From positions 23,314,001 to 23,378,000 of the forward strand of contig OZ249436.1 in assembly GCA_965235115.1 (NCBI GenBank): a DNA stretch of 64,000 nucleotides. The letters are read 5' to 3'. Below, piece after piece: positions 13,354 through 25,561 of this stretch. The number at the start of each line of letters is the position of its first letter. Positions within the stretch are counted from its first letter, which is position 1. Both the position numbers and the translations under genes were made by a program. The stretch is from Laetmonice hystrix. Its lineage: Eukaryota. A model generated the notes under the pieces. The model had not been told where the DNA came from and did not search any database. It saw only the letters and a list, made by a program, of their open reading frames with translations.

Positions 13354-14619
13354 AGCCCCAGTCCCACCAAAGCCGATTGTACGACGTTCTATGCCGTTCT
13401 ATCAAAATCTGAAATTTAGTTTACGTCGTGATGAATCGTGATGAAATCATGAAAACCCGAAGACCTAGCTACGAATCTATCATGTTCTATCCCGACATCG
13501 GCCCGACCTTCCCGACAGCGCAACGACTAAAGCAACGTTCACTGCCGACCTATGCAGATTGAGCTTCGACCTCTCAAGATCCCGGCCCGATGTATGGCGA
13601 CCTATACCAAGATTGACAAAAGATGTAGCAACGTTCTATGCCGTGCCCCAGCCGAGCTACGACCTGTCCCGATGACATCTGGTCTAGATCAGGGCTAAAG
13701 CCCCAGTCCCACCAAAGCCGAATTAGCTACGACGTGTCACGATCTGATAAATCGTGTAGAATCGGGAAAGGTCCTAACTCGGTCGTACAGTAGTCTTGAT
13801 AGATCCCCATAGGTCGGGATAGGCCACGATTGCACCCCGACAATTTTAAACTGTTCAAAACAATCGGCACTGGTCGGGAAAAAGCTCAAATCGGGGATAT
13901 ACCGTAGGTCAAACGTTGCTCAGTCGGGAATAGTCGGGGGACAATCGGGATAGTTCGTTGTTCAGTCCTGGTTGATCGTAGGACAATCGCCAGACATTTT
14001 CTAGATCTAGCCCTGACGTCATCGGGACAGGTCGTCGCTCGGCCGGGGCTCAGACGGCATAGAACGTTGCTACATCGTTGGTCAAACATCGGGTCGGGTT
14101 CTTGATAGGACGTAGCTCAATCTGCATAGGTCGGTAGAGAACGTTTCTCGGTCGGGAAGGTCGGGGGGATGTCGAGATAGAACATGATAGCACGCATCGT
14201 GATCGTTGAGAGATCTTTGGAAAACCGTTGCCCAGTCGCCGTTGAACGTGGCAATTCGTAGCTAGGTCTTCGGGTTGTCATTATTTCATCACGATTCATC
14301 ACGACTTAAAATAAATTTTAGATCTTGATAGAACGGCATGGAACGTAGTACAATCGGCTTTGGTGGGACTTTTTTGGCAATTTTCCTACGATAAACCAGG
14401 ACTGAACCACGAACTATCCCGATTATTCCCCGACTATATTCCCGACTGAGCAACGTTTGACCTACGATATAGCCCCGATCTTGAACAGTTCACAATTGTC
14501 GCGACCTATGAGGATCTATCAAGACTACTCTACGACCGAGTTAGGACCTTTCCCGATTCTACACGATTTATCAGATCGTGACACGTCGTAGCTAATTCGG
14601 CTTTGGTGGGACTGGGGCT
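13354..14619. mobile_element. PIF/Harbinger-like MITE family H1, composite (~1.27 kb)
   Basis: TIR AGCCCCAGTCCCACCAAAGC at 13354 and again at 13699, inverted at 14600-14619. Flanked by TAA/TTA. Confidence 0.85.
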
Positions 14620-15027
14620 TTAGCTTAGGCCTATCTTCTGCGATACTCCAACCAGTCAGAGTTTAGTCCTTACGTCCATACGGACTCTGACCGTCGAGTA
14701 CAAATAGTCTACACCGGGTTTAAACCACTTTTAGCGCTGAAACTTTTTTTTTTTTTTTTTTTTTTTGTTTATTTCCACAACAATCGCCTAGCATGGCGTT
14801 CTTCCTTGAGTGGTTAAAGGAAGTGTAACAGAATTCAACCTAGTTAAGACAATTAAGCATTAAAACACATTTTCACTTCCATCTGAACAGTAAACACAAC
14901 CAAAAATATGACTTATGTACAAATGGTTCAACAAATGACTAACATGAATAAAGTACAGAATTACAATAATACAGTGGGTAATGGCCAGGAGTTAATGTAC
15001 AGGAAGCAAAGGAAAATTGCAAGGGAA

Positions 15028-17885
15028 TTATAAGATCTGGTCAATGGCTCTTTTGAACGATTTTGGGCACGGAATGTGCTGAATATCAGCATGTAGCTTG
15101 TCCCATTCTTTCAAACCTCGTTGCATGGGACTTCTCAAAAAAAAGGCAGTGTGGGCTCGCCGCCGTTCAAAGCGCAGTTTACGATCACCTCTGGTTCTCT
15201 GTCTATTATTAACTATGGCTTTGCCTGCTATTGCTCTTTTATGCATTATCCGGAGTAGTTGCCTTTTCCTGCGGGTAGTTAAGAGATCTATTCCGGTTAG
15301 TGCATGTAGTTCGGCTATGGAATATTGTCTCAAGTTAGCCCGTAGGCAGAGGCGTAATCCTCGATTTTGGAGTTTTTGTAAGCGGTCATACTCAACGCGA
15401 TTTGCGCTTTCGTGCATGAATCCACAATAATCAAAAATTGGCAGTATTGTTTGTCTGTAGATTGCTAAACATACCTCGTTTGTTAGGGATTTCCGGAGTT
15501 TACCCAGCTTAAAAATACGGTTACTTGTCTGCTTGACTACTTTGTTAATGTTTTGTTTGAGTGTTAGTTGTCCGTCTAGTTCAACACCTAGATAGCAGTA
15601 GGTTGTAGTATGAGGTAACAGTGTATCACCCATGGTAATATTGAGATCATTCAAATTCCCGATCTTATTTAAAGCCCCAAACCACATGACCATTGTTTTC
15701 TTCCTGTTAATGGTTAGACCATTAGTAATTGACCAGCGGTACAGTCGGTCAACATCTACCTGCAGTCGGGCCTCAGCAATAGCCGCTGAGTTGGCACTAA
15801 CATACAACATGATGTCATCAGCAAACATAAAACATTTACAGTATATGAATTGCTGAGTGACATCATTAATAAATAGGATAAATAAGAGCGGTCCGAGTGT
15901 TGAGCCTTGTGGAACCCCAAATTTGACATCAGTGACCGGTGACTTGATGTTATTAGCCAGAGTACATTGCTTCCGACCACTGAGATAGCTAGTCACCCAA
16001 TTCATAATGTTGGTGGGGATACCAAGTTCCGATACCTTTCGCAATAACAACGGGACCGAGACGCTATCGAATGCTTTTTGAATGTCTATAAAAGCTGCAG
16101 CTGTTACCAGACCCTGATCCCTTGCAGTATAGAGGTCATTTGTGACATCAAGTACAGCGTCACTTGTGCTAAGTCCACTGCGAAAACCAAACTGGCAGGG
16201 TGATAGAAATTCCTTTTCCTCTAGTATTGCAGTTAAATAACGATGTACGACCTTTTCTAGTAACTTGCCTGGTAATGGTAGTAGAGTTATGGGACGCCAG
16301 TTAGAAACCATTCTCAGGTTACCTTTCTTGGGAATAGGAATTACCTTGCCCACACACCAAGCACTTGGGAATATTCCAGAGTCTAAGGAGTTAATGAAAA
16401 TTGTCACAAGTCTACGGGTTAGTAGCTGAAAGGCATCCTTTAGCACTCTGGCGTTAACACCGTCCACGCCCGATGATGTGTGTACGTCGATGTCACTAAT
16501 TTACGTATAATCTGTTCGTTTACAAGCTCGGCACCACTGAGTTTAGGACCCGACAGAGAACCATCATAGTGACCCAACCACATATCGGGTTCCACTTCAG
16601 TTAGTTTCCGGAATAAGCTTTCCCCAATACCTGCAAAGTATTCATTAATGTAAGTGGCCGTTTCCGCGTGTGGAACATCGGAACCAGTGTTTTCATTTAT
16701 CAGGGAGATTACTGCGGTTGCTTTACCAGGGTCAAGTATTTTGTTTACCTCCCTCCAGAATTTCTTGGGTTCGGGCCGTGCCTCTTCTAGCTTGTTCTTG
16801 ACCCAGTCTGCCTTGGCATTACGCAACATTCTTTGTATGGTTCGCCTGAGGCCTTTGGCTATGGTCCACTCTGACTGGTCACCAGTGTTTTGGTAGAGTT
16901 TGATATGATCTTTCCTATCGGCTATCGCTTCACGTATGTCATTTGTTATCCACTCTTCTGTGTGTTTCTTAACCCTGCGTGGTTGGTAGGGACAACTATA
17001 ATCAAGGTAGTTCTGGATATTGTTTATCATGTTAGTCCACTGTAGTTCAGGGTTTGCAGTGCTATCAAAGGCCGACCAATCAGAGTGGATGAGGTAGTCC
17101 CACAGATCATATGTATTGTAATTTCTATAAGACCTACCATAAAAAGACTCGTACTCTCTTCTAGTTCTGGTTTTCTTTTTGATCGCAAAGACAGGGATGT
17201 GGTCACTAATGAGGTGGTCAATAGTACCACATGCGGAAACGACTTCACAGTTAGTTAGGATATTATCTATACATGTGCCACTTCCAGCTGCTAATCTCGT
17301 CGATTGGGTAATTAAATGTTTGAGGCCTGTCTGGCGACAGAATTCAAACATCTTTTTAGGGTTTGGGGAATTGCGCTTTTTAACATCGATGTTGTAATCA
17401 CCTACGAACCATAGCTCTCTATTTTTACAGGACTCATGTTCAAGTATATATGTTAGGTGATCAAAGAAAGCAGCTACATTGCCTGCTGGTGGTCTGTAAA
17501 TAGTTACAATCATTAACTTTTTATGGTTTGGCTGGTCTACCAGGATGCATAGTGTTTCAATATCGCTGTTGCTGAGGCATAGTTCATTGACCCGACTGCT
17601 GAAATGGGTTATTTTATCCTTAAGATAACAGGCGACACCTCCTCCCCTACCACGCTCCCTATCATTTCGGTAAATTGTTCGTCCTCTCCAATACAACAGA
17701 CTATCATCGTAATTATTATTTAACCAAGTTTCGGAGATACACACAACATCGTACCCATCTAGTTGTACCTGAACATCATGCAACTTCGGAAAAAGACTCC
17801 TGGTATTTAACCCACAGATCTTAAATCCCCTTGCAATCTCCTTTAAGTCATCCTGCTGGGTAAGCAGGTACTGAAATGTGGCCAG
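15028..17885 (-). pseudogene. LINE-B ORF2 (APE endonuclease + RT) with one frameshift near 16495
   Basis: Frame is open from a CTG at 17885: GFKICGLNTRSL, CISETWL, GGGVACY, IYRPP, GDYNID, SDHIP. After the frameshift: DIDVHTSSGVDG, WRPITLL, QFGFR, GVPQGSTLGP, FADD, YLGV. Confidence 0.92.
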
Positions 17886-18490
17886 TTACCCATGTTGATG
17901 GTTCAAGTGATATACAATGAAAGAAATAAAGTGTTTTAAACGATTCCCTCATTGAGACTATTGTCTGAACAGGGGAGAGAAGGGTGAGGCGAGGATTAGT
18001 CTCAACTTGCCGCACTGATCTGTTGAGTGCATAAATATATAATTAAACAGAACTACAGATTCATATATATACAAGTTAGGGCTCCTCTGCCCTATACGAA
18101 GGACTTCACATACTGGTAACAAGTTACAGATTCAAGCTGAGTGCATTAGAAAGGGCCAAGAAGGCCAAGATAATAGCACCACAATAATCACTGCATTGTG
18201 ATTGTTGTGTTATACAACACGGTATACGCATATAGTACACAAGTATAGGACTTAGCATGCCATCCAAGTGTGGATACATTTTACAATTCACTTTAAAGAT
18301 GCATTCGCATATCAAGGATATCCTAAGATGTAGTTTTACACATTCCGGAATTCATTTTAGATCTTCCTATCACGGTTGTGAGTTAAGCGAATGTGCAGCA
18401 GTAAACGTAGTATGGTAACAGTAGTCGTATACGCAGTATGGTGCTAGATTCGAATGTTACAATAATATTGCTTCAATACTTCCATTTAAT

Positions 18491-20263
18491 TTAATTAGTA
18501 ACACGCAAACGTTGACGGATATCAACCAAAAGTTTACCGAGTTCATTACGACCGGTGTACACCCCCTGTGTCAGGTGTTCACTTGCATAGTTCTCGCCTG
18601 CTCCCCAGAAGGGGTCCCGGGTCGATTCGACTAGTGGTTCAGGATAAGTGCTTAATAGTTCGTTACGTAGGCGGTCATGCTGCAGGTATTTGCACATATT
18701 GATTTCCATCATTACTCTAAGGCGAGCGTTATACCAGGGATGGTCATCGGGGAGGACAACTAGTTTCCCGATCCCTAGTATTTTGTAGGGATTTTGTTCA
18801 CTTAGTACCTCTTTGGCCCGTTCGTATTGCCCACAGAAAATACATTTAGCGTACTGATATGCCATTTCATTGCAGCTAAAGTTCATAGCATCCAGTGTAG
18901 TACCATCTTCCTTAGCAGGGGCGTATGATATGGTGGCTTCGTACATATTACTGAGGGGTGCATTGGGTCCGTTAAAGATTAGCCCCGAAGCAGTTTTACG
19001 GACTCGCTGAGTTGCGGTACTTGGCCGGTCACGATGATCGGTTGCTGCAGCATCATTTTGGCGTCCAGTGCCCTGGTCCTTGTCGGCTCCTGTACCGGTG
19101 TCCGTGTTTTCCTGTTGGAGATCACGGGCATTTATGTCTAGGCGTAACGACATAGGCATGATGTCATCCGGGAGCTGTGAACTTTGACTGATTTCGTACA
19201 GTTTGCCATTAATTGTTATTCCTTCAGCATGAAGAGAAACCTTCGCCCCCTGACGTCTGTGGTATCTGGCAATCTGCCTGTATTTCCAGCGGGTTCTCCT
19301 TATCTCTGGAGGTTCGTCATAATTAAACCACACGTGTTGGCCCTCATTTGCAAGATTTTTCAGTTTCGCCTTTATCCGCATTACCTTTTCTAAGGCAGTC
19401 TTATTGCTAAAGCATACGATGATTTTGGGAGGTCGTCCGGGGTCAAGTTTGGCGTCTTTGCTGATGAGTCTCGATATTCTTAACACGTCAGGCTCATTGA
19501 GAGTTACTCCGAGTTGTGCTATCAGCTGCCAGAATTGTTTTTTGACATCTTCATTTGTAGTCATTTTGAGGCCACTTATGATTAGATTTCGGCCTCGGTC
19601 TTCATGCGCATAAAGAAGCCCGGCACTGTCCTTCCCTTTAAGGGCACAAGCATAAGTCTTAGTACTATTGAGCTCTTCTTTAATTGAGTATTGCGCTCTA
19701 GTCAGTTCATCTATTTGCTTCTGTTGGGAGGCTAGTTTTTTATTGAGCAATTTATTCACCTCATTACTTTCGTTTTGGTAGTTCTTATTATCAGCCTTCA
19801 CTTTCTCGATTTCCGATGAAACATGTGTATACATCTGTGTAAACTTAGCATCTAACTCGTGCTGCATGGCTAAAATATCTTCCTTTTTCGCCATAGTTGA
19901 AAGTTGGTTGTTCATATTTGCAAGTAGTGCAGAAATGTTACCCAGCTCTATGTTTGTCGCAGGAGTGCAGGCGCTTGTAACAGAGTCACTATTGCTGGGC
20001 ATATGTTCGGTCACACCTGGGTGATCATGTGTAATAGGTAAGGGTGTCTTTTCGGGCTCCCCACCTGTGCTCAACTCGTTGTGTGATACTTCATTATCAG
20101 ACATATTTTCACGGATTTCACTTTCAGTATGAGTATTTACATGGTCTTTTACACGTTTTGATTGGTTTCCCACACTGTTCGGTGATAGTTGGCCGGATCG
20201 CGACCGTTTTTTCCTTCCCCTAGGTTTGGTTTGCTTACCGGGGCCTACTTGCTGTTGACTCAT
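18491..20263 (-). CDS. LINE-B ORF1p: basic N-terminus, coiled coil, L1-type RRM/CTD and C-terminal NADAR (YbiA/DUF1768-like) domain
   Basis: Intact 590 aa. RNLIISGL...RPPKIIVCF...VWFNYD...ITINGKLY is ORF1 RRM/CTD-like. The C-terminus FNGPNAPLSNMY, NEMAYQYAK, KYLQHDRLRNELLST, LVESTRDPFWG, GRNELGKLLVDIRQRL is the NADAR signature. Confidence 0.88.
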   Translation of the reverse strand: MSQQQVGPGKQTKPRGRKKRSRSGQLSPNSVGNQSKRVKDHVNTHTESEIRENMSDNEVSHNELSTGGEPEKTPLPITHDHPGVTEHMPSNSDSVTSACTPATNIELGNISALLANMNNQLSTMAKKEDILAMQHELDAKFTQMYTHVSSEIEKVKADNKNYQNESNEVNKLLNKKLASQQKQIDELTRAQYSIKEELNSTKTYACALKGKDSAGLLYAHEDRGRNLIISGLKMTTNEDVKKQFWQLIAQLGVTLNEPDVLRISRLISKDAKLDPGRPPKIIVCFSNKTALEKVMRIKAKLKNLANEGQHVWFNYDEPPEIRRTRWKYRQIARYHRRQGAKVSLHAEGITINGKLYEISQSSQLPDDIMPMSLRLDINARDLQQENTDTGTGADKDQGTGRQNDAAATDHRDRPSTATQRVRKTASGLIFNGPNAPLSNMYEATISYAPAKEDGTTLDAMNFSCNEMAYQYAKCIFCGQYERAKEVLSEQNPYKILGIGKLVVLPDDHPWYNARLRVMMEINMCKYLQHDRLRNELLSTYPEPLVESTRDPFWGAGENYASEHLTQGVYTGRNELGKLLVDIRQRLRVTN

Positions 20264-21891
20264 GTCATGTAGCTTGTTTCTACAGCGTTGGTAGAGTTGA
20301 TGGCGTCAGGTACATATATCCGTTGATCAGAGTCCAGTAGGGTGCCACATCTGGTATTTGGTCACTTATATCACATCAGCACATATTGGGTATAGATCCG
20401 TGTTATTGGCGCATTGTGATTCCCCCTAGATTCCACGTAAAAAAGAAACTTTCAGGAGCCCTAAAACGCCGCGTCTCAAACGGCCGCCATCTTGATATTT
20501 TTTGAGGGTACTTGCTGAGGGTACACAAAAGAGGTTACTTAAACAGATACGTAAATGTATTTTGTTGGATGTTATCTTAGTAGGTGAAATTCTCTGTTTG
20601 TTCAAATACAGGGCAGCGCCGGCGACGACTGGGTGTGCGTATTTCCGACCTCTAGATCTATACTATAGACTAACGTTAGTATGGATCCGGAACGGACAAC
20701 ATAAGTAGGTTGCGCTACGTGTTCAAGCAGACACTGACGGCACAGAGTGAAGCAACCCGTTTCGGGTACTAGTCCTGAGCGATCTAATTTTTATCAGTTC
20801 CCGGTCACTCGGTGCGCCTGCCGATGCATTTGAGCGATGGACGCATTATTTACGGGAGGTGTTAAGAGTTGCGACAGTGACAATGCCGGGCTTGCTGAGA
20901 TTCTACTCGACAGGTGCGATTTTAATTAGACGTTTGGTCACTTGAGCCAGCCGCGAAATCGGCCGGGGCTTGTAGGATCGCCGGTAGATAGGCATACAAT
21001 CAAAGTCGTTACCGATGCCATCTTGTCTGAATGTGTCAACAAGCAGGTGCGCGTCACGTGACACCATGGAATTCCCCTGTCCGTTCCCCGTCCCAGTTCA
21101 AATGGCGTCTCAATGCGCAAGAACGGATTAACAGTGCACGGCTGACGAATTCATGTTAATATGTCCAGATTAGCGTTCCTTTCTCAGCTAAAAGGCAGCT
21201 TCGTCCTAGGATAGCGTTCTGCTTGATGTTTACAGCGTTTGGGGGAAATATAGGAAAATTGTCAACATTGGATGTATTGTAATTGGTTTAAGACTTTCGC
21301 ATGTACCACCCGCTCTTTCCTTCACCGAGGCCTTTGTATGTGCTAATGCGGAATTGTTTGCACTGGGATTTATGATCAGTAGATCCAGGCGATATAGGTA
21401 TGCCATACTTTTAAGATACACCCTCAATGCATGACCCCCCCCCCCCCCCCCCAACCCACACACATCCACATATTTTCTACAGGGACCTATATTATGACAA
21501 TTTTCTCTATTCGAACTGGCTACTTCTTGTCCTTGGCTTCCGGCGCTACTTTAAAGTAAGCCCAGCTTCAAAGCTCGAATCTCTTCTTAGCGTAGGGCAA
21601 GTTACAAAGAAATATTACACTAACTAACCTACACTAACCTTTATACGCGTTTCAACTCACCCATATTGGAGAGAAAAGGCAATAATGTTGAAAATAAATA
21701 TAAGCTGCTGCCACATGTAGCTTCAGATGTCACACCTCGGTAACATGAGACAAGGACACCGCCAACATGTCCACGAGCGGCAGGTGTGACACATGTGACG
21801 TACAAGTACAAGACTGATACGGTATAACATTCACCAAGTGTCTCCACAAGAATGACCGCAAAAAAATATGGAACAACCACCTACTGTTTAA

Positions 21892-23160: not shown

Positions 23161-24282
23161 TAATAGGGCGTAGCCGGTATTGCCGGGGGGCGCAAAAATA
23201 GTACATTTATGTAGGTGATGTTACAAAGTATCAGCTTATGGATATGATTTCCATGTTATGTAATTGCCAAGATGGGGTGTTCCGGCAAAAAAATGAAGCA
23301 AACAAACACCCCCACACACACCCACACACACACACAAACACCCAACAGGGTAAGTATAGATTTGATTTCGTTATTTCCCTTGGTGATTTCGGTGTTCAGC
23401 TTGGATCTTCGTATATCCCTTTGGTTATTTCAGTTAGAAGATTTCTATATATTTTTTGCGATGATTTCAGTCTTTAGGTGGCAGGCAATCATGTGGAATT
23501 AGGTGGGACGACGTAGATTAAGGAGATTATAGGAATCCACATGACTTGTGGCCACACATTGTGCCTGCGCGATGAGCCAAATTGATTATAAATCATGAGA
23601 TAAATTAAATCCATCAGACAGAGGCGATTTTCATGGAGGAGGGGGGGGGGTTAATACGGGAAACCACGGGCACAGTAGCCTGAAGACGCTATCAATATGC
23701 AAATACAGCCCGCAACAAAGTTGATAGGTAGCAAATTGTATTAGCACATAATTTATTGAATTTCATAGATACATCAAAGGGAAGGTGCCGGTTTATTGAC
23801 GCCTCGCGTGAAGCGTCAGTAGAAATGTCAATGACACCAAGGATCTTAAGAAATTAATTGTCGATGGAAGTCTGATTTGCCGCTCGTTCGCTGTATGGCC
23901 TAGGTCTACGATAAGAGGGATGACTTTTTCTATATCGCCCACCATTCTGACGGTCATCTTGGATTTTGCATCCTCACAGGATTGGGCCGGTAACGGTAAT
24001 GAGAAAAACTGATGCTAAGCCACCTGACTATTATCGTGTGACTTCTCTCTCACGACGATTGGATTTATCCAATCTTGCCGGCGATGCTCCCCGAAATTGT
24101 GGTGTGGAAAATCGTGTGGCTAAAAAAGCGATTTTTCACACGAATCGTGGCACTGTCGGCGATGCATCGCCGATGCCCATACGACGTGAAAATCGGCTTA
24201 GTGGACATCGGGTTTTGATGCTCCCCGACATCGAAGGAGCCACACGATTGTCGTGTAGAAAATCGTGCGGCTGTGTCCTTAA

Positions 24283-25484
24283 AGGCTCAGTCTCACTGGG
24301 CATTTTTGGCCTCGGGGATGTTCTCCCGATCTTAATTGAAGAGCCTCGGGAGGCTTCGGGAACAGGTTCCCCGGTGTTTCGAGGAAGCCTCGGGAGCGTC
24401 GGAAGCCATGTGGAACCATCGGGAGGCATCGGGAGAACTGCGAAAAATTTCAATGCCTGCATTGAAATTCTTCCCGATGTGTTCCCGACGTTTTGTCGGT
24501 AAAACAGGCCGGGGAGGCAACCCCGTAGCTTTCCCGAGTCCCGGGGAAGCCCCGGGGATGCTTCCCCTGAGCTTCCGCGAAACCTTCGTCCCCCCGAACC
24601 TCGTGTGTTGTTTCGGCGAAGGATCAGGGAACCTCCGGGGATATTTTGATCTCCGCCGCATGTCCGGCGACCTCTCAGCGACCTGTCGGTGATACATTCC
24701 CGATGTGGGTTTGCATTCCCGAATATTCGCCGAAATGTCGGTGATGGTTGAAAGTGCATTCTTCCCATACCTCCCCAATGCTTCCCCGAGGCACCGGGGA
24801 AGCATCGGTGAGTACTTGCGAACCATCCCCGGTGCCTCGGGGAAGGGTTATTGGGGAGGCACCGGGGATGGTTCGCAAGTACTCACCGATGCTTCCCCTA
24901 ATCTACGGGGATATTTCCCCGATGGTGTTTTAAATTCGGGGTAGCTCCGGGGCACCTTCGCCGATTATCGCTGAAGGTACCCCGGGGCTTTCCCGGCCAT
25001 CGGGAGCCATCCCCGATGATTCATGGCCATTGTTCGGGGGACATTCTCTGGACCATCCCCGATGCCTAATGCGTGCCATCTGTAATGGGACTGCTCCGTT
25101 GTTTGGGCCAAAAACTTAGGGAGCATCGGGAGCCATCGGGAGCCGATTTGTGTATTTCTACATCGCCGATGATTTTTCCCCAGTGGGACCTAAGCATTAG
25201 GGGAAGCATCCCCGGGGCTTCCCCGGGCCTCGGGAAAGCTACGGGGTTGCCTCCCCGGCCTGTTTTACCGACAAAACGTCGGGAACACATCAGGAAAAAT
25301 TTCAATGCAGACATTGAAATTTTGTGCAGTTCTCCCGATGCCTCCCGATGGTTCCACATGGCTCCCGATGCTCCCGAGGCTTCCCCGGAACACCGGGGAA
25401 CCTGTTCCCGACGCCTCCCGAGGCTCTTCAATTTACATCGGGAGAACATCCCCGAGGCCAAAAATGCCCAGTGGGACTGAGCCA
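24283..25484. mobile_element. PIF/Harbinger-like MITE family H2 (GC-rich, ~915 bp) plus an adjacent partial inverted copy
   Basis: Ends (A/T)GGCTCAGTCYCACTGGG ... CCCAGTGGGACCTAAGCA (25196) with TWA flanks. 25197-25484 is a reversed partial copy ending GACTGAGCCA. Confidence 0.82.
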
Positions 25485-25561
25485 TCAGCATAAGCGGGCA
25501 ACCATACTGCCGAACCACCCTATGGAAGGGATCATCGTAACCATATGAGAATAAAGTACTA

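What the first reader, a model, noticed from the sequence alone, without database searches (positions are those of the whole stretch)
18491..20263. LINE ORF1p with coiled coil-RRM-CTD-linker-NADAR architecture, fully intact
CR1/L2-group ORF1 accessory domains I know of are PHD fingers, zinc knuckles and SGNH esterases. Here a ~60-aa polar linker (QQENTDTGTGADKDQGTG...) connects the ORF1 core to a complete NADAR domain in an uninterrupted 590-aa ORF. ORF1p is the high-copy RNP protein, so the enzyme would coat the element RNA (inference).
Basis: partly seen in the sequence, partly recalled or inferred. Interest (0 to 1): 0.82.

Follow-up and report, generated by a model that had tools for sequence, protein, structure and literature searches.

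The report
LINE ORF1 protein fused to NADAR
A young jumping gene (LINE) in this invertebrate genome makes an RNA-coating protein that ends in an apparently working NADAR enzyme, a kind that strips ADP-ribose off DNA and RNA bases; the fusion is real and widespread but was already mentioned once in print.

Summary
Window 18491-20263 (-) is an intact 590-aa ORF1 of a 5,755-bp poly(A)-tailed LINE (14744-20498). Pfam, a confident AlphaFold model, Foldseek and a family profile agree on the order: disordered N-terminus, long coiled coil, RRM, CTD (all like human L1 ORF1p), a disordered linker of about 35 aa, then a YbiA-type NADAR. The three residues needed for guanine de-ADP-ribosylation (E466, K473, E546) are kept in 59-66 of 67 relatives, and dN/dS between subfamilies is 0.08-0.16.

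It is not unique. This genome holds many diverged LINE families with the same ORF1, and 133 of the 150 best database representatives have a NADAR directly behind the ORF1 core.

It is not wholly new either. A 2025 paper notes NADAR in ORF1 of Tx1 LINEs of the Pacific oyster, and this scan already reported an annelid case.

Three things are added here:
- The window element is not Tx1/L1-like; its ORF2 falls in a CR1/Jockey-like group that I could not name.
- The ORF1-NADAR(+esterase) 5' module has moved between L1-like and CR1-like backbones.
- The ORF1 core is predicted to form a trimer.

The likely role, inferred and not shown, is removal of ADP-ribose from bases of the element's RNA or cDNA.

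The parts
14744..20498 (-). Whole LINE copy, 5,755 bp
   Evidence: blastn against three other copies: 99.46-99.65% identity over 5,620-5,760 bp, with unrelated flanks. Whole-genome DNA search: 3 full-length copies, 1 starting at nt 140, and a series of 5'-truncated 3' pieces.
20264..20498 (-). 5' UTR (235 nt)
   Evidence: Shared 5' end of three copies, upstream of the ORF1 ATG.
18491..20263 (-). ORF1, 590 aa, intact (stop included)
19949..20263 (-). ORF1 aa 1-105: disordered, basic N-terminus
   Evidence: pLDDT 34-40
19637..19945 (-). ORF1 aa 107-209: coiled coil, predicted parallel trimer
   Evidence: Helices 107-123 and 127-209. Three copies of aa 107-384: ipSAE 0.65 against best control 0.00, in-register heptad contacts at 110-208. 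The family profile aligns to the L1 ORF1p coiled coil in 2YKO.
19355..19588 (-). ORF1 aa 226-303: RRM
   Evidence: Foldseek hits to L1 ORF1p (2YKP, 2W7A) and many RRMs. Profile match to 2YKO at E 8.4e-13.
19112..19330 (-). ORF1 aa 312-384: CTD-like domain plus a helix
   Evidence: Model elements E312-315 to H358-363 and H371-384. Aligned with the RRM-CTD of 2YKO and 2LDY.
19004..19111 (-). ORF1 aa 385-420: polar, disordered linker
   Evidence: pLDDT below 50 for 383-417. Almost absent in some families, e.g. L042, where the core ends at aa 291 and NADAR starts at aa 293.
18494..19003 (-). ORF1 aa 421-590: YbiA-type NADAR domain; E466, K473 and E546 match the catalytic residues of characterised NADARs
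   Evidence: Pfam; fold; profile against 8BAU at 3.8e-30 and 2B3W at 2.4e-29; column counts; residue roles from PMC11543638.
17886..18490 (-). Spacer between ORF1 and ORF2 (about 605 nt), no long ORF
   Evidence: tblastn with five esterase ORFs of related families found no remnant here.
16440..17885 (-). ORF2, first frame (APE endonuclease); begins CTG in this copy
15028..16500 (-). ORF2, second frame (reverse transcriptase); the frame shift lies within 16440-16500 in this copy. Two of the three other copies compared have one 953-aa frame; the third has a 796-aa frame.
14744..15027 (-). 3' UTR, with AATAAA (14768-14773) and a 23-nt poly(A) tail (14744-14766)

Best explanation
This is ORF1 of a young, recently active LINE. 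Its product is an L1-type ORF1p: a disordered basic N-terminus, a trimerising coiled coil, an RRM and a CTD. A flexible linker joins this to a catalytically competent YbiA-type NADAR hydrolase.

ORF1p coats the element's own RNA, so each trimer would hold three NADAR domains next to that RNA and, during target-primed reverse transcription, next to the nascent cDNA and the nicked target DNA. The most likely job is to cut ADP-ribose off guanine (and perhaps cytosine) bases of these nucleic acids. That would keep template and product readable and blunt any ADP-ribosyltransferase that marks foreign or single-stranded nucleic acid. This would parallel the orphan NADARs that phages carry against DarT1.

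Shown here: the domains, the fold, conservation of the catalytic residues, purifying selection, and spread over many LINE families. Inferred: the substrate, the enzyme activity, and the counter-defence role.
For: **Domain and fold**
- Pfam NADAR is above the curated cut-off and is found in 67 of 67 aligned relatives.
- The NADAR part of the model has block pLDDT of 92 or more. Foldseek to 8BAU gives E 3.8e-9 and to 2B3W 2.6e-7.

**Catalytic residues**
- E43, K50 and E125 of the Phytophthora NADAR are the residues tied to guanine-ADPr hydrolysis in PMC11543638 (passages read).
- They align with E466, K473 and E546 here.
- They are kept in 66/67, 59/67 (plus 2 Arg) and 63/67 sequences that share only 21-28% identity with the query.

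**Selection**
- NADAR dN/dS is 0.08-0.16 between subfamilies (dS 1.3-3.1, near saturation) and 0.11-0.12 at dS of about 0.1.
- For L012 versus L008, NADAR is more conserved (67% aa) than the ORF1 core (56%).

**ORF1p nature**
- The family profile hits human L1 ORF1p (2YKO) at E 8.4e-13, and the fold matches.
- Trimer model: score 0.65, best of 3 controls 0.00. That mark was reached by 21 of 30 proteins solved as pairs of one chain and by 0 of 23 solved as single chains. The runs agree in at least 90% of contacts and partner pLDDT is at least 72. A like complex (L1 ORF1p trimer) is solved, so this pass may only reflect the likeness.

**Activity of the family**
- 4 copies are 99.5-99.7% identical, and one of them has both ORFs open. 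There is a 5'-truncation series at 80-100% identity.

**Biochemical precedent** (papers read as passages)
- NADARs reverse guanosine ADP-ribosylation on ssDNA and dsDNA (PMC11543638) and on RNA (PMC11833690).
- NADAR and YbiA types also reverse cytidine ADP-ribosylation. [quoted passage not shown]
- Phage orphan NADARs neutralise DarT1 (PMC11257639, abstract only, from the listing).
Against: - No enzyme assay exists for any LINE NADAR.
- No RNA data were available for this element, so expression is unknown.
- I could not show that this genome encodes a base-targeting ADP-ribosyltransferase.
- E. coli YbiA also has a small-molecule N-glycosidase role (recalled; PMC12945103 mentions riboflavin synthesis), so a nucleic-acid substrate is not the only option.
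- dS values between subfamilies are near saturation, so the exact dN/dS figures are rough.
- K473 is replaced in 6 of 67 relatives and E546 in 3-4 of 67.
Confidence: 0.55

Rival explanations
1. The NADAR domain is an active hydrolase with a different substrate. It could process NAD-derived adducts or caps on the element's RNA, or small ADP-ribose- or ribosyl-containing metabolites. It would then serve RNA maturation or housekeeping rather than any conflict with a host ADP-ribosyltransferase.
For: - PMC12477816 suggests processing of RNA intermediates for the oyster and Ectocarpus elements.
- NADAR domains are inserted in invertebrate nidovirus replicase polyproteins next to RNA-processing enzymes (PMC11848433).
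- The catalytic residues are conserved, which fits any hydrolytic role.
Against: - NADARs tested so far were inactive on phosphate-end ADP-ribosylated RNA and DNA and acted only on base-linked ADP-ribose (PMC11833690).
- No NAD-cap activity is reported in the passages I read.
Confidence: 0.17
2. The domain works mainly as a reader. It binds ADP-ribose marks (for example at PARP-marked DNA breaks or on modified RNA) and so steers the RNP, with catalysis being secondary.
For: - The 8BAU structure shows that NADAR binds ADP-ribose (title).
- Earlier notes of this scan describe LINE ORF1 NADAR-fold domains in another genome that have lost the catalytic residues (e1-7350017 and e1-7350018; not checked here).
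Against: Here the catalytic Glu/Lys/Glu are kept in 59-66 of 67 relatives, which a pure binding module would not need.
Confidence: 0.1
3. The domain is a YbiA-like N-glycosidase acting on riboflavin-pathway intermediates, carried along without relevance to retrotransposition, or it is a recently captured host exon that is decaying.
For: The closest solved sequences include E. coli YbiA (2B3W).
Against: - It is kept in frame behind the ORF1 core in 23 of 23 intact own-genome ORF1s aligned and in 133 of the 150 best database representatives.
- dN/dS is well below 1.
- It is present in three deep ORF2 lineages.
- A metabolic enzyme tethered to an RNA-coating protein has no obvious rationale.
Confidence: 0.04

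Closest known systems
ORF1 proteins of Tx1 LINE families of Crassostrea gigas (Repbase), noted to carry YbiA-family NADAR domains in PMC12477816 (Genome Biol 2025; passages and the legend of supplementary Fig. S2 read)
   Same: A LINE ORF1 ending in a YbiA-type NADAR in an invertebrate. In this genome the L039 and L042 families have the same ORF1 type with an ORF2 that matches human L1 ORF2p at E 1.7e-104, i.e. L1/Tx1-like.
   Different: - The window element's ORF2 is not L1/Tx1-like: E 8e-18 to L1 ORF2p, 953 aa, no Pfam domain beyond APE and RT.
- In the ORF2 tree it lies in another deep group.
- The paper gives one sentence and an alignment figure, with no analysis of structure, selection or distribution.
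- I could not see the Repbase sequences, so identity with any named family is untested.
Human L1 ORF1p (type II ORF1p; PDB 2YKO/2YKP/2YKQ, 2LDY, 2W7A)
   Same: Coiled coil, then RRM, then CTD in the same order. Supported by the profile match at E 8.4e-13, fold matches and a predicted parallel trimer.
   Different: - A C-terminal enzyme domain is added.
- About 16-18% identity in the Foldseek alignments.
- Pfam Transposase_22 did not match the window protein at E up to 0.01.
Characterised NADAR hydrolases: Phytophthora nicotianae NADAR (8BAU), E. coli YbiA (2B3W), DarT1-associated and phage NADARs (PMC11543638, PMC11125620, PMC11833690, PMC12945103)
   Same: Same fold and the same E/K/E residues of the YbiA type. 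The phage enzymes are likewise carried by a mobile genetic parasite.
   Different: - Those are stand-alone or toxin-linked proteins. Here the domain is fused to an RNA-binding, trimerising RNP protein of a retrotransposon.
- Activity is untested.
CR1-like LINEs with esterase (SGNH/GDSL) or PHD domains in ORF1 (Kapitonov and Jurka 2003; recalled, not read here)
   Same: An accessory hydrolase associated with the 5' coding part of a LINE. Several relatives in this genome carry a separate 211-217-aa GDSL-like ORF between ORF1-NADAR and ORF2 (Pfam hits are below the curated cut-off).
   Different: The window family has no esterase ORF or remnant of one. NADAR is a different fold and chemistry.
NADAR domains in Pol of Ectocarpus Gypsy LTR elements (PMC12477816) and in invertebrate nidovirus polyproteins (PMC11848433; PMC12377751 seen in the search listing only)
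   Same: NADAR recruited by replicating genetic parasites that pass through RNA.
   Different: A different host protein (Pol or replicase rather than ORF1p) and different element classes.

Membership tests
NADAR superfamily, YbiA type (Pfam PF08719) | Sequence match above Pfam's curated cut-off over the whole domain | tested here: met
   99 bits against 35.1, profile positions 9-163 of 163. 67 of 67 aligned relatives match.
NADAR superfamily, YbiA type (Pfam PF08719) | NADAR/YbiA fold | tested here: met
   Block pLDDT of 92 or more over aa 421-589. Foldseek 8BAU E 3.8e-9 with TMt 0.71; 2B3W E 2.6e-7 with TMt 0.69.
NADAR superfamily, YbiA type (Pfam PF08719) | Catalytic Glu and Lys (E43, K50) plus the subfamily-defining Glu (E125 of P. 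nicotianae NADAR; PMC11543638) | tested here: met
   E466, K473 and E546 align to chain positions 45, 52 and 127 of 8bau_A, which is the paper's numbering plus 2. Kept in 66, 59 and 63 of 67 relatives.
NADAR superfamily, YbiA type (Pfam PF08719) | Hydrolysis of base-linked ADP-ribose | not testable with these tools
   Needs an enzyme assay.
L1-type (type II) ORF1p | Coiled coil, RRM and CTD in this order | tested here: met
   Model. Foldseek 2YKP/2YKO/2YKQ at 9e-6 to 2e-4, plus 2LDY and 2W7A. Profile against 2YKO at E 8.4e-13 covering coiled coil, RRM and CTD.
L1-type (type II) ORF1p | Homotrimer through the coiled coil | tested here: inconclusive
   Prediction only: score 0.65 against best control 0.00. 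The calibration used two copies, not three, and a like complex is solved, so the pass may come from memory.
L1-type (type II) ORF1p | Match to Pfam Transposase_22 and related models | tested here: not met
   No such hit for the window protein at E up to 0.01. Not among the 25 families shown (of 53) for the 67 relatives.
   Only Exo_endo_phos and RVT_1 are found in the 953-aa ORF2. E 8e-18 to human L1 ORF2p, against 1.7e-104 for the L042 ORF2.
   AATAAA plus A23 in the window copy, and A-rich tails in all four copies.
   No named reference RTs were at hand. The ORF2 relatives found carry no clade names.
Tx1 LINEs with NADAR ORF1 (print precedent) | L1/Tx1-type ORF2 | tested here: not met
   Not met for the window family. 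Met for the L039 and L042 families of the same genome.

The most novel reading that the evidence does not exclude
LINEs of molluscs and other marine invertebrates carry NADAR on ORF1p as a counter-defence. The host (or co-infecting agents) would mark retroelement RNA, cDNA or exposed single-stranded target DNA by base ADP-ribosylation, for instance through the CARP-1 family of guanine ADP-ribosyltransferases that is concentrated in bivalves. The element would erase the mark in cis. This would be a eukaryotic transposon counterpart of phage anti-DarT NADARs. The transfer of the ORF1-NADAR(+esterase) module between L1/Tx1-like and CR1-like backbones would then show the module spreading as a selectable cassette.
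Probability: 0.25. Interest if true: 0.85.

Novelty: new member of a known kind. Interest (0 to 1): 0.5.

Why it matters
Base ADP-ribosylation of DNA and RNA is known as a weapon and a defence in bacteria and phages. Its role in animals is almost unexplored, although bivalves hold CARP-1-type guanine ADP-ribosyltransferases.

Many active-looking LINE families keep a catalytically intact eraser of this mark on their RNA-coating protein, and they exchange it between unrelated LINE backbones. That suggests the mark matters for retroelement replication in invertebrates.

The element offers a simple test system: ORF1p with or without NADAR activity, with or without a guanine ART. It also adds a clear case of modular exchange of the 5' coding part between deep LINE lineages.

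Tried and rejected
- **The search for homologous proteins, whole ORF1 and aa 421-590 with lengths 'shorter':** no hit at E up to 1e-5. This is a limit of the word index, because the exhaustive search found 3,379 hits.
- **ORF2 search for clade names:** 257 hits at E up to 1e-10 among 8,000 scored, best 44% identity.
- **Host ADP-ribosyltransferase:** Pfam PF03496 (ADPrib_exo_Tox) and PF22596 (Scabin-like) against the window's genome gave no match. The tool's 14 control genomes were also silent, so this says nothing either way. Both accession numbers were recalled.
- **Expression:** no RNA holder is listed for the element. The two runs laid are contigs of one sample and show only that the family and its flanks are present.
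- **Esterase remnant in the 605-nt spacer:** none found by tblastn with five esterase ORFs.
- **Target-site duplications:** no clear one in 3 of 4 copies. The fourth shows an imperfect 30-nt repeat about 40 nt upstream, probably a repeated target.
- **More ORF2 sequences (13 regions):** The trees therefore hold only the 15 loci with both ORFs in hand.
- **Idea that L038 or L042 are chance nested insertions:** rejected. Each architecture recurs at independent loci, with 5'-truncated copies.
- **Literature:** 'NADAR'+'retrotransposon' (140 papers, nearly all the surname Nadar; 20 listed), 'NADAR'+'ORF1'+'LINE', 'DUF1768'+'retrotransposon' (0 papers) and 'YbiA'+'non-LTR' (0 papers). Only PMC12477816 mentions the fusion.
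Full report
**1. The observation**

The minus strand of the window holds an uninterrupted ORF at 18491..20263. It is 590 aa from its ATG and 604 aa stop to stop. Pfam finds one family in it: NADAR (PF08719) at aa 433-587, covering positions 9-163 of the 163-position profile, E 4.5e-28, 99 bits against a curated cut-off of 35.1.

Downstream on the same strand lie an APE endonuclease frame (16440..17885) and a reverse-transcriptase frame (15028..16500), which overlap in different frames. So ORF1 is intact. In this copy ORF2 is split, and it starts with CTG where other copies have ATG.

**2. The element**

Comparison with three other genomic copies fixes the element at window 14744..20498 (5,755 bp). 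The copies are 99.46-99.65% identical over 5,620-5,760 bp and have unrelated flanks.

The parts are a 235-nt 5' UTR, ORF1, a spacer of about 605 nt, ORF2 (953 aa where whole), and a 3' UTR. The element ends in AATAAA (14768-14773) and a 23-nt poly(A) tail (14744-14766).

- Of the four copies, three have ORF1 open and one has an early stop.
- One copy has both ORFs open.
- ORF1 differs from the window copy by 3 and 6 nucleotides in the two other copies that have it open.
- A whole-genome DNA search lists 3 full-length copies, one starting at nt 140, and a series of 5'-truncated pieces reaching the 3' end at 80-100% identity. These counts are lower bounds. This is the usual picture of a LINE family that is still or was very recently active.
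- I saw no clear target-site duplication in 3 of 4 copies.

**3. Architecture of ORF1p**

I aligned the window protein with 23 intact ORF1s from other families of the same genome and with 44 hand-picked proteins (357-697 aa) out of the 150 best hits of the exhaustive representative search. This is alignment A1: 67 rows, 21-28% identical to the query.

AlphaFold2 on A1 gave mean pLDDT 77.7:

| Region (aa) | Model |
|---|---|
| 1-105 | disordered |
| 107-123, 127-209 | long helices |
| 226-303 | beta-alpha domain |
| 312-363, helix 371-384 | second small domain |
| 383-417 | pLDDT below 50 |
| 421-589 | block pLDDT 92 or more |

- Foldseek against the PDB returned 8BAU (Phytophthora NADAR with ADP-ribose; E 3.8e-9, TMt 0.71), 2B3W (E. 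coli YbiA; 2.6e-7), then the human L1 ORF1p trimer 2YKP/2YKO/2YKQ (9e-6 to 2e-4, TMt 0.51-0.59), 2LDY (RRM-CTD), 2W7A (RRM) and generic RRMs.
- A profile of A1 against PDB sequences gave 8BAU 3.8e-30, 2B3W 2.4e-29 and L1 ORF1p 2YKO 8.4e-13. The last alignment runs from the end of the coiled coil through RRM and CTD.
The linker is about 35 aa, not about 60, and is nearly absent in some families.
- Three copies of aa 107-384 were predicted to form a parallel, in-register bundle. The score was 0.65 and the best of 3 controls 0.00. That mark was reached by 21 of 30 proteins solved as pairs of one chain and by 0 of 23 solved as single chains. The runs agree in at least 90% of contacts, and partner pLDDT is at least 72. 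The calibration used two copies, not three, and the L1 ORF1p trimer is solved, so this shows likeness rather than proof.

**4. Is the NADAR domain a working enzyme under selection?**

PMC11543638 (passages read) ties guanine-ADPr hydrolysis to E43, K50 and E125 of the Phytophthora enzyme, equivalent to E88, K95 and D171/E173 in E. coli C7 NADAR. The paper uses the Glu at position 125 to define the YbiA subfamily.

In the printed alignments these residues are chain positions 45, 52 and 127 of 8bau_A. They pair with E466, K473 and E546 of the window protein.

- In A1 these columns read E in 66/67, K in 59/67 (plus 2 R) and E in 63/67. S438 is invariant, and W510, K525, W553 and G554 are nearly so.
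- Nei-Gojobori dN/dS was computed on NADAR codons between copies of different subfamilies. I left out the near-identical copies L001-L004, L032 and L033, and kept only pairs at 55-99.5% aa identity.
- The result is 0.08-0.16 at dS 1.3-3.1 (near saturation, so rough) and 0.11-0.12 for L012 and L014 against L010 at dS of about 0.1.
- Very close pairs scatter between 0.09 and 1.4 on a handful of changes.
- For L012 against L008, NADAR is 67% identical and the ORF1 core 56%.

**5. How common is it?**

The ORF1 protein search of the window's own 627-Mb genome gave 108 matches, with 74 of 747 candidates scored. Besides the four near-identical copies there are dozens of open frames of 400-630 aa at 22-37% identity.

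- Scanning every frame of the 49 loci in hand with my own core and NADAR HMMs found NADAR behind every full core domain.
- The exceptions are broken copies and L024, whose NADAR match stops at profile position 72.
- The exhaustive search of 1.84 billion representatives found 3,379 proteins at E up to 1e-3 and 491 at E up to 1e-10, none above 38% identity among the 150 listed.
- Of the 150 best, 137 have both core and NADAR, and in 133 the NADAR lies within 120 aa behind the core. Two have the core only and 11 have NADAR only.
- The top hit is a Haliotis rufescens protein of 4,240 aa (XP_048255699.1) with seven NADAR domains and no ORF1 core. Other hits have two or three NADAR domains.

**6. 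Which LINE clade, and a module swap**

The family's ORF2 has only APE and RT domains. It matches human L1 ORF2p at E 8e-18.

In the same genome, the L042 and L039 families combine ORF1-NADAR with a separate 217-aa GDSL-like ORF and an ORF2 of about 1,200 aa that matches L1 ORF2p at E 1.7e-104. These fit the 'Tx1' description in print.

An ORF2 tree of the 15 loci for which I had both ORFs shows three deep groups:

| Group | Loci |
|---|---|
| A | L039, L042 |
| B | window family, L034, L036, L037, L038, L046 |
| C | L040, L041, L043, L044, L045, L047, L048 |

- In the ORF1 tree, L038 sits inside group A with short branches: L038+L039 at 98/97 support, and with L042 at 100/100.
- The ORF1 data reject L038 grouping with the rest of B (log-likelihood 116 lower, p-AU 1.5e-5). 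The groups were named after I had seen the trees.
- Both architectures are real elements, not nested accidents. The L042 arrangement recurs at two loci at 99-100% identity with 5'-truncated copies. The L038 arrangement recurs on C6, C4 and C6 with graded 5' truncation.
- So the 5' module (ORF1-NADAR plus esterase ORF plus spacer) has been exchanged between an L1/Tx1-like and a CR1/Jockey-like backbone.

I could not name group B. The esterase ORFs in its members recall CR1-like elements (recalled from Kapitonov and Jurka 2003). The poly(A) tail does not fit that, and no named references were available.

**7. What it probably does**

NADARs of all four families remove ADP-ribose from guanine in ssDNA and dsDNA (PMC11543638) and in RNA. 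[quoted passage not shown] NADAR and YbiA types also act on ADP-ribosyl-cytidine (PMC12945103).

PMC11833690 relates the higher activity of one NADAR to its nucleic-acid binding. Fusion to ORF1p would supply exactly that.

I therefore read the protein as an RNP coat that carries three base de-ADP-ribosylases per trimer, next to the element's RNA, the cDNA and the target DNA. A counter-defence role is attractive for four reasons:

- Phages use orphan NADARs against DarT1 (PMC11257639, abstract).
- Invertebrate nidoviruses also carry NADAR (PMC11848433; PMC12377751 seen in a listing only).
- Molluscs hold multi-NADAR proteins.

All of this is inference. I could not show an ART in this genome or any expression of the element.

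**8. Novelty**

[quoted passage not shown] S2. Four other searches found no further mention.

This scan has also reported an annelid LINE with ORF1-NADAR, and, in another genome, LINE ORF1 domains with a NADAR fold but lost catalytic residues. I did not check those notes.

The fusion is thus a known kind. The window adds:

- a well-documented, young member outside Tx1;
- evidence for catalytic integrity and selection;
- a breadth estimate;
- the inter-clade module exchange.

**Verdict**

The clade placement is unproven and the novelty is overstated. Interest is moderate.

Noticed in passing
L038 (G000:C3:4044100-4053000), L042 (C2:40700100-40709000), L039 (C8:28935700-28944600): The 5' module (ORF1-NADAR plus a GDSL-like ORF plus spacer) is shared at about 60% aa identity between elements whose ORF2s belong to different deep LINE groups: L1/Tx1-like in L039 and L042, CR1-like in L038. 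The ORF1 and ORF2 trees disagree (AU p 1.5e-5).
   Followed up: yes
L034:2834-3478, L038:2907-3557, L042:2620-3273, L046:3269-3904, L039:5725-6378(-): Several NADAR-LINE families have a separate ORF of 211-217 aa between ORF1 and ORF2. It carries DSRGRG and DGCH motifs and weak Pfam Lipase_GDSL_2 hits in 3 of the 4 scanned (E 2.5e-5 to 8e-3, below the cut-off; none for L034; L039's was not scanned). These elements would thus carry two different hydrolases. The window family lacks this ORF.
   Followed up: partly
P0003 (Haliotis rufescens XP_048255699.1, 4,240 aa); also P0079, P0043, P0076, P0047: The best database hit to the LINE NADAR is a mollusc protein with seven tandem NADAR domains and no ORF1 core. 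Other hits have two or three NADAR domains. Whether these are host genes, the source of the LINE domain, or domesticated copies is open.
   Followed up: partly
L038:3848-4605 (C3:4047947-4048704); also C6:16017629-16018522 and C4:34744440-34744757: The spacer between the esterase ORF and ORF2 of the L038 family holds a tandem repeat of about 145 bp. The repeat contains a 32-nt word identical to one in the L042 spacer, and its copy number differs between insertions.
   Followed up: no
window 14000-14722 and 20507-21200: Both flanks of the LINE copy have contig word depths 50-350 times that of the LINE itself in the laid run. The element therefore sits within or between very high-copy repeats.
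   Followed up: no
L040, L041, L043, L048 (ORF2 N-termini): Group C elements have ORF2s of about 1,050 aa with a Cys-rich N-terminal extension ahead of the endonuclease. Some database relatives of the window ORF2 carry PHD (PF00628) and PF27108 annotations.
   Followed up: no
L024 (G000:C6:21678001-21682188), frame 1003-2949: An ORF1-like open frame of 648 aa whose NADAR match stops at profile position 72, after which the frame continues with unrelated sequence. This may be a truncated or replaced NADAR.
   Followed up: no
window 24000-25500: A GC-rich stretch with long overlapping open frames on both strands, and similar peptide strings recurring at about 24.3 kb and 25.1-25.4 kb. It looks like another repeat family.
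   Followed up: no
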